From NCBI RefSeq assembly GCF_003334335.1, contig NZ_QOWQ01000096.1: 1,948 bases of DNA. One strand, 5' to 3'. Below the pieces are notes generated by a model. The model worked only from the letters and a program-made list of their open reading frames with translations. It was not told where the DNA came from and searched no databases. The DNA comes from Escherichia coli (lineage in GTDB: Bacteria > Pseudomonadota > Gammaproteobacteria > Enterobacterales > Enterobacteriaceae). Numbering within the stretch: the stretch's first letter is position 1; the number at the start of each line of letters is the position of its first letter. Both the position numbers and the translations under genes were made by a program. This document shows, one piece after another, positions 1 to 1,948 of this stretch.

Positions 1-764
1 GTGCGTTTTTCCGGGTCATAGTTTGACGGCACCTGGATGATGCGACCGCGGATATGGTAGTTCACCGTCATCTGCTGACCACCAAACTGCTCCGCATCCA
101 CCTGCATCCCCACAATGGCCGTGTTCGGGTAGCACTGTTTCACATCGATGATTTCGGTGTATGACGACCACAGCGTTCTGTTCTGCAGCTGGTCCGTGGT
201 GCTGTCCGCCGTCTCCCTGACCATCCGGATGTTAAAGGGGCGGGGAGGCAGATTATCCAGAATCACCGACGCAAGGAACTGTGAGGTGGTCTTGCCGTTA
301 ATGGTGACATCCTTTTCCGTCACCCAGTTACCGTTACGCTGTAACTGAATCAGCAGACGGACAGAGGACGGATTACGGTCACCCTTTGACGTGGTCTCCA
401 CCAGTGACTGCACCCCGAAGGTCACCCGCAGGCGGTCAATGTTCGCTGACGTAATGGTGCGTGTTACCGGTTTTGCCCTGGTCACTTCGACACCCAGTAC
501 AGTTTCAGAGCCGGAGGACTCAAAGCCTTCCGGTGGTGTCTGCTCCTGCTCCCCGGCACGCCAGACCGCGGTCACACCGTGTATCACGGGATTACCGTCC
601 GTGTCCGTCAGCGGGGTTTTGTTCACCAGAATACTCTGCAGGCCTTTCACCGGGCCTTCTATCGGTCCCTCACCAATCGCATCAATCACGCTCATCATCT
701 GCGTGGATTTGAGATTATCCTTCACCTCACGAGGCGTGTGTGCCTTACCGCCACCTTTACCCAC
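1..764 (-). CDS. J: Host-specificity / tail-tip protein J (central tail fibre), N-terminal ~254 codons; gene continues past the window start
   Basis: Reverse-complement translation from GTG at 764..762 gives MGKGGGKAHTPREVKDNLKSTQMMSVIDAIGEGPIEGPVKGLQSILVNKTPLTDTDGNPV...NIRMVRETADSTTDQLQNRTLWSSYTEIIDVKQCYPNTAIVGMQVDAEQFGGQQMTVNYHIRGRIIQVPSNYDPEKRT, open to position 1. This closely matches the lambda gpJ N-terminus as I recall it (MGKGSSKGHTPREAKDNLKST...). There is no in-frame ATG upstream before a stop, and an AGGAGAGGGG Shine-Dalgarno lies 6 nt upstream. It is not in the ORF track only because it is truncated by the window edge. Confidence 0.9.
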   Translation of the reverse strand, partial: MGKGGGKAHTPREVKDNLKSTQMMSVIDAIGEGPIEGPVKGLQSILVNKTPLTDTDGNPVIHGVTAVWRAGEQEQTPPEGFESSGSETVLGVEVTRAKPVTRTITSANIDRLRVTFGVQSLVETTSKGDRNPSSVRLLIQLQRNGNWVTEKDVTINGKTTSQFLASVILDNLPPRPFNIRMVRETADSTTDQLQNRTLWSSYTEIIDVKQCYPNTAIVGMQVDAEQFGGQQMTVNYHIRGRIIQVPSNYDPEKR

Positions 765-770
765 TCGATC

Positions 771-780
771 CCCCTCTCCT
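771..780 (-). promoter_or_regulatory. Shine-Dalgarno sequence for J (AGGAGAGGGG on the minus strand)
   Basis: Minus-strand sequence reads AGGAGAGGGG-GATCGA-GTG; the purine-rich block sits 6 nt upstream of the GTG start at 764..762. Confidence 0.6.
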
Positions 781-805
781 GTCTGATGTCTGAATTTGTT
801 TATGC

Positions 806-838
806 CCAAAAAACAACAGGCACCCCGGAGGGTGCCTG
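806..838 (-). terminator. Rho-independent terminator on the minus strand, about 42 nt upstream of the J start
   Basis: Perfect 9-bp GC-rich inverted repeat CAGGCACCC (817..825) / GGGTGCCTG (830..838) with a 4-nt loop (826..829). On the minus strand the hairpin is followed immediately by UUGUUUUUUGGGC (plus 816..806). On the plus strand it is followed by CAUCAUGACGG with no U-tract, so it is unidirectional. Confidence 0.7.
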
Positions 839-876
839 CATCATGACGGAATAAAAATTCTGAATATCTTCACATT

Positions 877-904
877 TTCACAAACTGACTGTGGCGCGTA
901 TAAT
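877..904 (+). promoter_or_regulatory. Sigma70-type promoter on the plus strand: -35 TTCACA (877..882), 16-bp spacer, -10 TATAAT (899..904), with an A/T-rich UP-like tract upstream (~848..872)
   Basis: The -10 hexamer is a perfect TATAAT and the -35 matches TTGACA at 5 of 6 positions with 16-bp spacing. The upstream tract AATAAAAATTCTGAATATCTT is AT-rich. Predicted transcription start is about 911..913. Confidence 0.6.
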
Positions 905-910
905 TTCGCT

Positions 911-1008
911 GCGTTAGTGTTTTTTCTGCCCGAGTAACAAAAACAACTCCTTAACATTAATCTTCATTTGTCTGTCCCGCAGCTCCGCGATCACTGCGGG
1001 ATTTTTTT
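911..1008 (+). ncRNA. Candidate small RNA (~98 nt) in the I-J spacer, transcribed antisense to the tail operon
   Basis: Predicted start 7 to 9 nt after the TATAAT and 3' end at the U-tract of the plus-strand terminator. No ATG occurs anywhere in the transcript and the only GTG-initiated frame is 6 codons. An A/U-rich single-stranded stretch (CUUCAUUUGUCUG, 961..973) lies directly 5' of the terminator hairpin. Both ends are predicted, not mapped. Confidence 0.45.
975..1008 (+). terminator. Rho-independent terminator on the plus strand
   Basis: 8-bp stem TCCCGCAG (975..982) / CTGCGGGA (994..1001) with 6 G-C pairs and an 11-nt loop, followed by TTTTTTT (1002..1008) and then ATGTTTTAT. On the minus strand the same hairpin is preceded, not followed, by the run, so it is oriented to stop plus-strand transcription. 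It abuts the I stop codon (1014..1016). Confidence 0.75.
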
Positions 1009-1013
1009 ATGTT

Positions 1014-1694
1014 TTATCCCTGTCGACCAATAACCACGACCTTTCCGCCCCCGCCTTCATCACGGGTACTGATGTCCTGGGATATACGGCGGGAGCCAAC
1101 CAGCATTTCCCCGTAAGGCACCGGCATCGGGTTACCCTGGGCAATCATGTTGTCCAGTGAGGAAAAGTACGTGTTCTGTTTACCGTTATCCGTTGCCCGG
1201 TAATCCGGTGTTTTTGCCTTCGGGGCCAGCATCTGGGCCACACCGCCCAGAATCATGCTGGCTCCAAGTGAAAACAGCATCGTGGTGGCAGAAAAACCAC
1301 CGGCTGCCAGGGCTGAACCCCATAACGCCATCGTGGCTCCGGCAGTGAAGAAAGAGCCCACGATGGCCGCCGCCCCCAGCACAATCTGCAGTCCGCCCTT
1401 TCCGGCACCGGCCAGTCGCGGCACAATATGGATGACCGTTCCCTCACCCAGTGGTTCGTGAAGGCGGGCATACACCGCCTCCGGTGCCGTGTCATCACCG
1501 GCAATACGTATCTGGTACCAGCCTTCGTTCATCTGACGGCGAAAGCCCGGCACCTGCAGCGACAGGGCACGGATGGCTTCCGCTGCCGTGTTCACATACA
1601 GGCTGATGCGGCGACCAAATCGTTGTAAATCCCCGTGAAGGCAGATGCGGACCAGTGGCGGTGACGCCAGACAGAATGCGTTCGTCGTTGCCAT
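1014..1694 (-). CDS. I: Tail assembly protein I (lambda gpI family): N-terminal ubiquitin-like domain plus Gly/Ala-rich hydrophobic C-terminal region
   Basis: Complete 226-aa ORF from ATG at 1694..1692 to TAA at 1016..1014. The translation MATTNAFCLASPPLVRICLHGDLQRFGRRISLYVNTAAEAIRALSLQVPGFRRQ...GKQNTYFSSLDNMIAQGN...GEMLVGSRRISQDISTRDEGGGGKVVVIGRQG closely resembles lambda gpI as I recall it. A GAGAGAGG purine run (1706..1713) lies 11 nt upstream of the start. Position immediately downstream of K and upstream of J matches the conserved K-I-J order. Confidence 0.92.
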   Translation of the reverse strand: MATTNAFCLASPPLVRICLHGDLQRFGRRISLYVNTAAEAIRALSLQVPGFRRQMNEGWYQIRIAGDDTAPEAVYARLHEPLGEGTVIHIVPRLAGAGKGGLQIVLGAAAIVGSFFTAGATMALWGSALAAGGFSATTMLFSLGASMILGGVAQMLAPKAKTPDYRATDNGKQNTYFSSLDNMIAQGNPMPVPYGEMLVGSRRISQDISTRDEGGGGKVVVIGRQG

Positions 1695-1948
1695 TTTTCG
1701 GAATACCTCTCTCGTTTGCTCAGTTGTTCAGGAATATGGTGCAGCAGCTCGCCATCACCACAGTAAATGGCGGCATGATTCGGCACCGATGAACCAAAAC
1801 AGCACAGCAGCACATCGCCCGGTTGTGCTGATGACAACGGCACCTGATACAGCCCTGTGGCCTCCAGATTATCCAGGTACAGGTTCTGGCCGTTGCGCCA
1901 CCAGTCATCCTCGCGATGAAAATCCGGCATATCAATTCCCGCCAGATG
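1592..1948 (-). CDS. K: Tail assembly protein K (lambda gpK family), C-terminal NlpC/P60 (C40 peptidase-like) region; N-terminus lies beyond the window end
   Basis: The frame is open from the window edge (...HLAGID-MPDFHREDDWWRNGQNLYLDNLEATGLYQVPLSSAQPGDVLLCCFGSSVPNHAAIYCGDGELLHHIPEQLSKRERY...) to TGA at 1594..1592. The Met at 1930 given in the ORF track is internal, not the true start. The LLCCFG Cys and downstream His residues are typical of NlpC/P60 tail-assembly proteins. The ORF overlaps the I start by 103 nt in a different frame. Confidence 0.9.
   Translation of the reverse strand, partial: HLAGIDMPDFHREDDWWRNGQNLYLDNLEATGLYQVPLSSAQPGDVLLCCFGSSVPNHAAIYCGDGELLHHIPEQLSKRERYSEKWQRRTHSVWRHRHWSASAFTGIYNDLVAASACM

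What the first reader, a model, noticed from the sequence alone, without database searches (positions are those of the whole stretch)
765..1013. Expanded, AT-rich I-J intergenic spacer with moron-like architecture
The I stop and J start are separated by about 250 bp. In lambda itself this junction is, to my recollection, only a few tens of bp, and tail assembly genes are normally tightly packed. By hand count the core of the spacer (841..970) is about 35% G+C, against visibly GC-richer coding flanks. It carries its own promoter and terminator, the hallmarks of a horizontally acquired moron inserted between late genes.
Basis: partly seen in the sequence, partly recalled or inferred. Interest (0 to 1): 0.55.

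Follow-up and report, generated by a model that had tools for sequence, protein, structure and literature searches.

The report
Known prophage small RNA gene PasB
The unusually long, AT-rich gap between two phage tail genes holds the gene for PasB, a small regulatory RNA already described in pathogenic E. coli, so the feature is real but not new.

Summary
On the minus strand, tail gene I stops at 1014 and J starts at 764, leaving a 249-bp gap. Lambda's gap is 60 bp, and seven other phages have 2-83 bp. The core 841-970 is 35.4% G+C against 56-59% in the flanks.

The gap is not anonymous DNA. On the plus strand, antisense to the tail genes, it carries the small-RNA gene PasB:
- a promoter, TTCACA-16-TATAAT, at 877-904;
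- a predicted RNA at about 911-1008;
- a terminator stem at 975-1001 followed by seven T.

The published PasB northern probe matches 981-1003 exactly. The spacer is 92% identical to the E2348/69 locus where PasB was defined, also between I and J. PasB there is Hfq-dependent and expressed while I and J are silent. After a coordinate correction, the EHEC Sakai RNAs EcOnc22, 23 and 24 map to the same place.

A second hairpin on the tail-gene strand (839..806) has a counterpart in lambda. The weak STnc100 match there is not real homology.

The spacer occurs in 1,766 of 5,426 complete E. coli genomes and is never annotated. "Moron-like" is a fair description, but the cargo is a known RNA, not a protein. 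Related phages carry sodC in the same slot.

The parts
1..764 (-). 5' part of tail-tip / host-specificity gene J (start codon GTG at 764..762; runs off the left edge)
   Evidence: The translation matches NCBIfam lambda_TipJ positions 1-254, E 5e-163. PhiR12_1 annotates J at the same position.
776..780 (-). Shine-Dalgarno AGGAG for J
   Evidence: Read directly from the sequence: AGGAGAGGGGGATCGAGTG.
806..839 (-). Hairpin plus T-run on the tail-gene strand (GCAGGCACCC-uccg-GGGUGCCUGU, then UGUUUUUUGG); terminator-like, between I and J
   Evidence: Found by the terminator scan. Across 8 variants, 98.8% of cells are paired and one pair switches C-G to U-A through U-G. Lambda's 60-bp gap has an analogous hairpin plus T-run. 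The 295-344-bp gap class has an unrelated hairpin at the same place.
851..879 (+). Conserved A+T-rich block ATAAAAATTCTGAATATCTTCACATTTTC, upstream of and overlapping the PasB -35 hexamer; the variable J-side modules join here
   Evidence: Nearly invariant across the compact, 295-344-bp and 903-bp sodC classes, and absent from the 851-bp sodC class L025. Three differences in Sakai. Its function as an UP element, factor site or recombination boundary is inferred, not tested.
877..904 (+). PasB promoter: -35 TTCACA (877-882), 16-nt spacer, -10 TATAAT (899-904)
   Evidence: 11 of 12 consensus matches. The hexamers and spacing are kept at 10 of 12 or better in 19 of 25 distinct upstream variants, although the inter-hexamer sequence diverges.
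911..1008 (+). PasB small RNA. 98 nt from the predicted start site; the published 83-nt PasB of E2348/69 maps to 927-1008
   Evidence: The published northern probe matches 981-1003 exactly. The spacer is 92% identical to the E2348/69 I-J gap that holds PasB.
944..957 (+). Predicted seed, CAACUCCUUAACAU (CAACUCCUUCACAU in E2348/69), in a single-stranded conserved core
   Evidence: Unpaired in the fold. Conserved columns in the 21-variant alignment. Strongest predicted pairing with six published RIL-seq target segments (mean z -2.0 to -2.4), not seen with 26 non-target segments.
975..1008 (+). PasB intrinsic terminator: stem 975-982 / 994-1001, then seven T (1002-1008), ending 5 nt from the I stop codon
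   Evidence: inverted repeat I7. The 7-bp stem and the U-tail are invariant in 21 variants.
1014..1694 (-). Tail assembly gene I (longest ORF; homologues are annotated as starting near 1595)
   Evidence: Annotated as tail tip assembly protein I in PhiR12_1 and E2348/69. 67.6% identical to the I protein of a lambda imm434 record.
1592..1948 (-). 3' part of tail gene K (C40 peptidase), overlapping the start of I as in lambda; runs off the right edge

Best explanation
The I-J gap holds an autonomous small-RNA gene, a variant of PasB, transcribed from its own sigma-70-type promoter on the strand opposite to the tail operon. It ends at an intrinsic terminator 5 nt short of the I stop codon.

Shown by sequence here:
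- the promoter, RNA body and terminator are present and conserved;
- the published PasB probe matches exactly;
- the locus is syntenic with, and 92% identical to, the prototype locus.

Shown by others for the prototype. PasB is an RNA of about 83 nt that depends on Hfq for stability. It is abundant while the flanking tail genes are silent. It is ligated to many mRNAs on Hfq, almost always as the second RNA of the chimera.

Inferred. In this genome the RNA is made in the lysogen. It binds Hfq through its U-tail and pairs with host and accessory mRNAs through the single-stranded core CAACUCCUUAACAU (944-957). My windowed pairing test supports that core as the seed.

The hairpin plus T-run on the tail-gene strand (839..806) is a separate, older feature of the junction, also present in lambda. 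It most likely stops stray sense transcription from entering J in the lysogen and is read through by Q-modified polymerase during lytic growth. That last step is inference only.
For: - Exact match of the PasB probe at 981-1003 on the plus strand; 0 of 200 shuffles gave a match.
- PasB coordinates NC_011601.1 1466343..1466261 lie in the 240-bp I-J gap of prophage PP6, antisense to I and J. The two spacers align at 92%.
- Promoter and terminator are present. The promoter is kept in 19 of 25 variants. The terminator stem and U7 are invariant in 21 variants.
- EPEC RNA-seq: PasB baseMean 482 and 1082 against I 4.8 and J 15. The log2 change without Hfq is -6.8 and -2.4. PasB has 37 RIL-seq interactions and is almost always the second RNA in chimeras.
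- RIL-seq partners include ler, perB, bfpB, bfpI, ftsZ and galE.
- Seed test: target mean z is -2.0 to -2.4 at windows 29-38. Non-target mean z is +0.1 to +0.4, with 0-1 of 26 at or below -2.
- EHEC Sakai EcOnc22, 23 and 24 (about 85 nt, destabilised without Hfq) lie in the I-J gaps of Sp15, Sp14 and Sp11 on the same strand. They fall on the PasB-homologous segment once coordinates are shifted by +137 to +146.
- No conserved ORF is present in the spacer.
Against: - Nothing was measured in the genome the window comes from.
- The predicted start site (911, giving 98 nt) does not match the published 83-nt length. That length was estimated from read coverage and a northern blot, so either the 5' end is processed or one of the estimates is off.
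- The terminator stem never varies, so covariation says nothing for or against it.
- The fold of the RNA as a whole is only mildly better than shuffles (z -1.77).
- The counts of promoter-like and terminator-like sites in the window are not above chance.
- The window's variant carries two substitutions in or beside the predicted seed, so its targets may differ from those of the prototype.
- Several prototype targets (ler, bfp, per) are EPEC-specific, while many carriers of this spacer are ExPEC or APEC. The physiological role is therefore open.
- The seed test used only six target segments.
Confidence: 0.9

Rival explanations
1. The spacer is a protein-coding moron: a small ORF in the gap (for example the 38-codon ORF 957..841 on the minus strand, or the 32-codon 'hypothetical protein' annotated in phage PhiR12_1) is the real cargo.
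For: ORFs of 21-38 codons exist in the gap. One record annotates a hypothetical protein there.
Against: Across 25 or more spacer variants, no ORF keeps its frame or length. One- and two-base indels in A/T runs shift or truncate every candidate, and the E2348/69 variant has ATG followed directly by TGA at the start of the 38-codon ORF. Other records, including RefSeq E. coli genomes, annotate nothing there.
Confidence: 0.03
2. A second small RNA is made from the tail-gene strand (about 888..807), a shortened relative of STnc100/PasD. It would use the 839..816 hairpin as its terminator and form a back-to-back pair with PasB.
For: Rfam STnc100 match at 888..807 on the minus strand, 25 bits, E 0.007. 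The hairpin plus T-run is conserved with one compensatory change. Prophage sRNAs often come in pairs (Tree et al. 2014). PasD and STnc100 are reported as related.
Against: The score is far below the family's gathering threshold (47), with 127 model positions deleted. Alignment to genuine STnc100 copies (145 bits, next to AgvB near Q, not at I-J) shows similarity only in the terminator loop and T-run. No minus-strand promoter was found upstream of 888. No RNA from this gap other than PasB appears in the EPEC tables that are held, though the interaction table was cut when stored. The only EcOnc peaks in these gaps are on the PasB strand.
Confidence: 0.07
3. PasB acts mainly in cis. Because it is fully complementary to the I-J intercistronic part of the late transcript, its role would be to control processing of that transcript or J expression during lytic growth, and the trans interactions would be secondary.
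For: The gene is locked into this one position, antisense to the late operon, in thousands of prophages. Complementarity to the late mRNA follows from geometry.
Against: PasB stops 5 nt short of the I coding sequence. It lies about 130 nt or more upstream of the J ribosome-binding site, with a strong hairpin in between, so it cannot occlude either. It is expressed when late genes are silent and has many reproducible trans partners on Hfq. Its core pairs specifically with those partners. The body is the most variable part of the cassette, which suits changing trans targets better than a fixed cis target. That said, a cis target would co-vary automatically, so this point is weak.
Confidence: 0.1
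4. The long spacer is the ancestral state of the junction, and lambda-type phages lost the cassette, so nothing was 'inserted'.
For: The cassette is widespread. It accompanies I proteins that are only 73.5% identical to the window's, so it is not young.
Against: All sampled phages outside this E. coli / Stx-phage group have gaps of 2-83 bp, including lambda, HK106, mEpX2, T1-like phages and a Providencia phage. The cassette's G+C differs from its flanks. The published survey finds PasB largely restricted to Escherichia and Shigella.
Confidence: 0.1

Closest known systems
PasB (pathogenicity-associated small RNA B) of EPEC E2348/69 prophage PP6: Pearl Mizrahi et al., Sci Adv 2021 (PMC8550237); distribution survey by Zhu, Shabalina and Storz, bioRxiv 2026 (10.64898/2026.05.13.724894)
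   Same: Same position (I-J gap), same strand (antisense to the tail genes), same terminator (the probe matches exactly), same promoter hexamers, and 92% spacer identity.
   Different: Relative to the 83-nt prototype, the window's copy has C to A at PasB position 27 (the change the survey attributes to PasB-2), G to A at position 33, and one C fewer before the terminator. The J-proximal 45 bp of the spacer also differs. Neither paper, in the parts I read or searched, describes the promoter, the sense-strand hairpin, the sodC co-occupancy or a link to the EcOnc RNAs.
EcOnc22 / EcOnc23 / EcOnc24 of EHEC O157:H7 Sakai prophages Sp15, Sp14 and Sp11 (Tree et al., Mol Cell 2014, Table S2, PMC4104026)
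   Same: Hfq-crosslinked RNAs of about 85 nt, destabilised without Hfq, lying in 240-bp I-J gaps on the strand antisense to the tail genes. After the coordinate correction they fall on the PasB-homologous segment.
   Different: The body and promoter sequence have diverged (the Sakai spacers scored about 8 of 12 on the promoter). The equivalence to PasB is my mapping and rests on a coordinate shift of +137 to +146 anchored on AgvB1. The PasB discovery paper's table gives no EHEC homologue for PasB, and a term search of the 2026 survey found no mention of EcOnc.
AgvB / AsxR anti-sRNAs and STnc100 / PasD at the PR' moron site of lambdoid prophages
   Same: Prophage-borne, Hfq-binding small RNAs with their own promoters and terminators, sitting in a slot that tolerates extra DNA.
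   Different: Different location (downstream of Q and PR', not in the tail operon) and no sequence homology. The Rfam AgvB and STnc100 models do not match the window at their thresholds.
Classical lambdoid morons (Juhala et al. 2000), for example lambda lom and bor, prophage sodC-F1/F2 of O157:H7 and sodCI of Salmonella Gifsy-2
   Same: Extra DNA between genes that are adjacent in relatives, with its own promoter and terminator, distinct composition, and expression from the repressed prophage. SodC occupies this very I-J slot in some relatives (L025, L053).
   Different: The cargo in the window is a non-coding RNA of about 100 nt, not a protein gene.

Membership tests
PasB sRNA family | Sequence homology to the prototype PasB (NC_011601.1 1466343..1466261) | tested here: met
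   The probe matches 981-1003 exactly. The spacer alignment is 92% identical, with 2 substitutions and 1 indel over the 83 nt.
PasB sRNA family | Position between tail genes I and J, antisense to them | tested here: met
   The same holds in 79 IMG/VR loci and three Sakai prophages.
PasB sRNA family | 3' stem-loop followed by a U-tract (intrinsic terminator and Hfq-binding module) | tested here: met
   Stem 975-982 / 994-1001 followed by U7. Invariant in 21 variants.
PasB sRNA family | Expression as an RNA of about 83 nt that depends on Hfq | not testable with these tools
   Shown for the prototype (northern blot; log2 change without Hfq -6.8 and -2.4) and for EcOnc22, but not for the window's source genome.
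Moron (Hendrix/Juhala sense) | Extra DNA between two genes that are adjacent in related phages | tested here: met
   249 bp against 60 bp in lambda and 2-83 bp in seven other phages.
Moron (Hendrix/Juhala sense) | Own promoter and own terminator flanking the cargo | tested here: met
   Promoter 877-904 and terminator 975-1008, both on the plus strand, conserved across variants. These are predictions; the start site is not mapped.
Moron (Hendrix/Juhala sense) | Nucleotide composition different from neighbouring phage genes | tested here: met
   35.4% (core) and 43.4% (spacer) against 56-59% in the flanks; the lowest 130-nt coding window is 49.2%.
Moron (Hendrix/Juhala sense) | Expressed from the repressed prophage, independently of late transcription | not testable with these tools
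   Published for the homologue: PasB baseMean 482 and 1082 against I 4.8 and J 15 in EPEC.
Moron (Hendrix/Juhala sense) | Cargo is a protein-coding gene (as in the classical examples) | tested here: not met
   No ORF is conserved across spacer variants. The cargo is an RNA. SodC-carrying relatives do meet this feature.
STnc100 (Rfam RF02076) | Score at or above the family's gathering threshold (47 bits) with full-length model coverage | tested here: not met
   25 bits with 127 model positions deleted. Genuine copies score 145 bits and align to the window only at the terminator.
AgvB/AsxR anti-sRNAs (Rfam RF02702, RF02703) | Match to the family model; location downstream of PR' | tested here: not met
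   No hit in the window at E up to 1. AgvB is found in Sakai Sp10 and Sp17 near Q, not at I-J.

The most novel reading that the evidence does not exclude
The I-J junction may be a dedicated antisense cargo slot. The conserved block 851-879 would double as the PasB upstream promoter element and as a recombination boundary at which J-side modules (two unrelated sense terminators, a module of about 100 bp, sodC) are swapped. PasB, besides its trans targets, would pair with the late I-J transcript during induction and so couple a lysogen-expressed RNA to production of the tail-tip protein J.
Probability: 0.1. Interest if true: 0.5.

Novelty: already known. Interest (0 to 1): 0.22.

Why it matters
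It matters mostly for annotation. PasB has no Rfam family, so this gene goes unannotated at 3,877 places in 1,766 complete E. coli genomes. One phage record calls a spurious 32-codon protein across it. Recognising it explains an otherwise odd 250-bp hole in a tightly packed tail operon.

Three small additions may be useful to people working on prophage sRNAs:
- PasB appears to be the same family as EcOnc22-24 of EHEC Sakai.
- It has a well-conserved sigma-70-type promoter.
- Its conserved core CAACUCCUU(C/A)ACAU is the segment predicted to pair with its published partners. The window's variant differs within that core, which hints at variant-specific targets.

Tried and rejected
- Rfam scan of the window. 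It gave only a sub-threshold STnc100 hit and two chance snoRNA hits. The STnc100 lead was followed up and rejected.
- AgvB/AsxR. I considered these from memory as candidates. They sit at the PR' site and do not match.
- PasA, PasC and PasD. They lie near Q and the lysis genes, not here.
- Direct repeats at the spacer edges. Only short, imperfect matches of the kind expected by chance.
- Small-ORF hypothesis. Rejected because no ORF is conserved.
- Consensus folding of 21 PasB variants. It returned only the invariant terminator stem, so it offered no covariation test.
- Whole-length duplex prediction between PasB and its targets. It gave uninformative, loop-filled pairings with unremarkable z-scores. 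I replaced it with a windowed scan and a non-target control.
- First reading of the EcOnc22-24 coordinates. It placed them at the J-proximal hairpin. This was an artefact of a genome-version shift, corrected with AgvB1 as the anchor.
- Rfam scan of the other gap classes (L011, L025, L048, L053). Nothing at E up to 0.1.

Full report
**What is in the window.** All genes lie on the minus strand. The 3' part of K runs from the right edge to 1592. I is the ORF 1014..1694. J starts with GTG at 764 and runs off the left edge. The J N-terminus matches the lambda TipJ model over positions 1-254 (E 5e-163). The closest annotated phage, PhiR12_1 (95.8% identical over the whole window), annotates K, I and J at the same places. 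The I-J gap is therefore 765..1013, 249 bp.

**Checking the observation.** Lambda's I-J gap is 60 bp. Seven other phages lack this element, and their I proteins are 30-68% identical to the window's.

| Phage | I-J gap (bp) |
|---|---|
| lambda | 60 |
| PhiR57_1 | 60 |
| PhiR49_1 | 60 |
| Providencia PSTCR8lys | 2 |
| HK106 | 52 |
| mEpX2 | 52 |
| Salmonella phage 36 | 83 (to the next tail gene) |
| vB_EcoS_NBD2 | 77 |

. So 249 bp is a real expansion.

The whole spacer is 43.4%, against 56.4% for J and 59.3% for I. No 130-nt window in the coding flanks falls below 49.2%.

The consensus scan finds three relevant sites:
- a promoter, TTCACA-16-TATAAT (11 of 12), at 877-904 on the plus strand;
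- a plus-strand terminator at 984-1000 followed by a T-run;
- a minus-strand terminator at 839..816 followed by a T-run.

The number of such sites in the window is not above the shuffle expectation. The scan alone therefore proves nothing, and the weight comes from what follows.

**Identification.** An Rfam scan gave only a weak STnc100 match. That name led to a 2026 preprint on the prophage 'Pas' small RNAs. From there I reached the paper that defined them by Hfq RIL-seq in EPEC E2348/69 (PMC8550237). Its Table S6 gives PasB as NC_011601.1, minus strand, 1466343..1466261, 83 nt, prophage PP6, northern probe AATCCCGCAGTGATCGCGGAGCT. The reverse complement of that probe matches the window exactly at 981-1003 on the plus strand, and none of 200 shuffles gave a match. 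In E2348/69 those coordinates lie in a 240-bp gap between the tail assembly gene I and gpJ, antisense to both. That gap aligns to the window's spacer at 92% identity.

The window therefore carries a PasB gene on the plus strand:
- promoter at 877-904;
- predicted start near 911;
- terminator stem at 975-982 / 994-1001;
- seven T ending at 1008, which is 5 nt from the I stop codon.

The published 83-nt RNA maps to 927-1008. Relative to the prototype, the window has C to A at PasB position 27, G to A at position 33, and one C fewer before the terminator.

**What is known about PasB.** In EPEC, PasB has an RNA-seq baseMean of 482 (activating condition) and 1082 (non-activating). The flanking I and J genes are at 4.8 and 15 in the activating condition. 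PasB drops by log2 6.8 and 2.4 without Hfq. It has 37 RIL-seq interactions and is almost always the second RNA in chimeras, as genuine sRNAs are. Partners in the activating condition include ler, perB, bfpB, bfpI, ftsZ and galE. So this transcription unit is active in the lysogen, independently of the late operon. That is the behaviour expected of a moron.

**Link to EHEC.** Table S2 of Tree et al. 2014 lists EcOnc22 (Sp15; about 85 nt; destabilised without Hfq), EcOnc23 (Sp14) and EcOnc24 (Sp11). Fetching those coordinates from the current Sakai record puts all three inside 240-bp I-J gaps, on the strand antisense to the tail genes.

Taken at face value, the peaks sit near J. However, the paper used an older genome version. 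Rfam places AgvB1 at 1941920-1941981 in the current record, against a published peak of 1941783-1941835. That is a shift of +137 to +146, and EcOnc06 maps onto an STnc100 copy in Sp17 with a similar shift. With that shift, EcOnc22 becomes about 2902851-2902920, which is the PasB-homologous segment of the Sp15 gap. I conclude that EcOnc22-24 are PasB family members. The PasB discovery paper's table gives no EHEC homologue for PasB, and a term search of the 2026 preprint found no mention of EcOnc.

**Distribution and architecture.** The spacer alone finds 147 phage records, mostly Stx-converting phages. It also finds 3,877 places in 1,766 of 5,426 complete E. coli genomes, with no annotated feature under any listed hit. 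PasB has no Rfam family.

I pulled 80 IMG/VR loci whose I protein is at least 96% identical to the window's and measured 79 gaps across all loci then held.

| Gap size (bp) | Number of loci |
|---|---|
| 234-255 (the window's type) | about 30 |
| 295 | 1 |
| 338-344 | 43 |
| 851 | 3 |
| 903 | 2 |

The alignment shows a modular junction. Reading in the sense of the tail genes, the order is:
1. the I stop codon;
2. 5-7 variable nt;
3. the PasB terminator (reverse complement);
4. the PasB body, in at least three divergent versions;
5. the PasB promoter;
6. a nearly invariant block, GAAAATGTGAAGATATTCAGAATTTTTAT;
7. a variable J-side module;
8. the J ribosome-binding site and start codon.

The J-side module takes one of three forms. 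The first is the window's hairpin plus T-run. The second is an unrelated sequence of about 150 bp with its own hairpin (AAACCCCGGTATCtgctGATACCGGGGTTTCTCTTT). The third, in the 851 and 903 bp classes, is a complete sodC gene on the PasB strand with its own terminator, confirmed as SodC by NCBIfam at 221 bits against a cutoff of 165.

Lambda's 60-bp gap also holds a sense-strand hairpin plus T-run, AACCGCCtgcgGGCGGTTTTGTCATTT. So the DNA that is truly extra relative to lambda is roughly 840-1008, about 170 bp: the PasB cassette with its upstream block. There are no direct repeats at the edges. Homology with lambda runs to the end of I and resumes at the J start codon. The intergenic segment is replaced rather than interrupted.

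**Conservation tests.**
- Promoter. In 19 of 25 distinct upstream sequences, TTCACA or TTTACA, a 16-nt spacer and (T/A/G)ATAAT are kept at 10 of 12 or better at the same distance from the conserved GCGTTA. This holds although the sequence between the hexamers diverges. The Sakai type, the L047 type and the L007/L039 type score 8 of 12. The sodC-linked L025 type has lost the promoter.
- PasB structure. RNAalifold on 21 variants returns only the 7-bp terminator stem, invariant in all 21. Covariation is therefore silent on it. The single-sequence fold has a weak 5' hairpin, a long unpaired stretch and the terminator (z -1.77).
- Sense-strand hairpin. Across 8 variants, 98.8% of cells are paired, against 35-49% when the partners are slid by 1-3 columns. 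One pair switches C-G to U-A through U-G. This is modest but real support for a conserved structure.
- ORFs. No reading frame survives across variants. This includes the region that PhiR12_1 annotates as a 32-codon hypothetical protein.

**Mechanism test.** I slid 14-nt windows of the E2348/69 PasB body over six published RIL-seq target segments and compared the duplex energies with dinucleotide-shuffled targets. Windows starting at nt 29-38 (AACAACUCCUUCACAUUGA) stand out. Their mean z is -2.0 to -2.4, and most targets reach -2 or below at the peak windows. Their mean energy at the peak windows (31-35) is -13.8 to -14.5 kcal/mol.

This core resembles an anti-Shine-Dalgarno sequence, so I repeated the test on 26 non-target coding segments. 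There the mean z was +0.1 to +0.4, only 0-1 of 26 reached -2 or below, and the mean energy was -8.5 to -9.4 kcal/mol. The signal is therefore specific to the targets. The core coincides with the conserved columns of the variant alignment. It fits the preprint's suggestion of a seed in the single-stranded region upstream of the terminator. In the window the core is 944-957, CAACUCCUUAACAU, one base different from the prototype.

**Rivals.**
- A protein moron is rejected because no ORF is conserved.
- A second, sense-strand sRNA related to STnc100 is unlikely. The hit is 25 bits against a threshold of 47. Genuine STnc100 copies (145 bits) lie next to AgvB near Q and resemble the window only at the terminator loop and T-run. 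No minus-strand promoter was found.
- A mainly cis-antisense role cannot be excluded, but the geometry is against it. PasB overlaps neither the I coding sequence nor the J ribosome-binding site, it is expressed when the late genes are silent, and it has specific trans partners.
- The idea that the long spacer is ancestral and lambda lost it is disfavoured. All sampled distant phages have short gaps, and the cassette differs in composition from its flanks.

**Verdict.** The interpretation 'moron-like' is a fair description of the architecture, and this junction does behave as a cargo slot. But the cargo is a small RNA on the opposite strand that has already been described (PasB in 2021 and 2026; EcOnc22-24 in 2014), and it is widespread rather than a private insertion. 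The finding is already known, and interest is low. My incremental contributions are the promoter, the EcOnc equivalence, the modular map of the junction including sodC, and computational support for the seed.

Noticed in passing
L025 (I-J gap of 851 bp) and L053 (gap of 903 bp), downstream of the I match that ends at about 2178 in each locus: A complete Cu,Zn superoxide dismutase gene (sodC-like; 175 aa in L053; NCBIfam SodC 221 bits) sits in the I-J gap on the PasB strand, upstream of PasB, with its own terminator. In L053 the PasB promoter is kept. In L025 it is replaced. Prophage sodC-F1/F2 of O157:H7 are known cargo genes, but the paper I read does not place them relative to I and J.
   Followed up: partly
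L011, L042 and 41 other loci with gaps of 338-344 bp; L048 (295 bp): The commonest gap class among the 80 loci replaces the window's J-side hairpin with an unrelated sequence of about 150 bp. It has its own hairpin plus T-run (AAACCCCGGTATCtgctGATACCGGGGTTTCTCTTT). Rfam finds nothing there at E up to 0.1. Its content is unexplained.
   Followed up: partly
L091 (Sakai Sp15), L092 (Sp14), L093 (Sp11); NC_002695.2 about 2902851-2902920 and equivalents: EcOnc22, 23 and 24 of Tree et al. 2014 map to the PasB-homologous part of the I-J gaps once the published coordinates are shifted by +137 to +146 to the current genome version. I did not find this equivalence stated in the papers I read.
   Followed up: yes
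L002 (lambda), locus 1446-1505 = lambda 15445-15504: Lambda's own 60-bp I-J spacer contains a sense-strand hairpin followed by a T-run (AACCGCCtgcgGGCGGTTTTGTCATTT). It sits in the same relative position as the window's 839..806 hairpin. A terminator-like hairpin just upstream of J seems to be a general feature of this junction.
   Followed up: partly
window 869-882 (+): TTCACA occurs twice, 8 nt apart start to start (cTTCACAttTTCACA). The second copy is the -35 hexamer. The first lies in the conserved upstream block. This may be a factor-binding site or a chance repeat. PasB is reported as more abundant under 'non-activating' growth conditions.
   Followed up: no
L001 (PhiR12_1) 2370-2468 (-), roughly window 865-968: This phage record annotates a 32-codon 'hypothetical protein' across the PasB promoter and body on the opposite strand. 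The frame is not conserved in other variants, so it is probably a spurious gene call.
   Followed up: yes
L087 (HK106) 615-877; L088 (mEpX2) 504-845; L001 (PhiR12_1) 3889-4803: Other slots in the same tail-tip gene block also carry extra genes. HK106 and mEpX2 have a small ORF between K and I; in HK106 it is followed by an annotated rho-independent terminator. PhiR12_1 has a 915-bp gene noted as 'antirepressor protein' just upstream of K, where lambda has L.
   Followed up: no
window 660-702 (-): Weak matches to the archaeal C/D-box snoRNA families sR28 and sR32 (15-16 bits, E 0.3-0.4) inside the J coding sequence. These are chance hits.
   Followed up: no
L094 428-682 and L095 587-839 (Sakai Sp10 and Sp17): Genuine STnc100 (145 bits) and AgvB (96 bits) lie directly adjacent and convergent near Q in both prophages. 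EcOnc06 of Tree et al. appears to correspond to the STnc100 copy in Sp17.
   Followed up: partly
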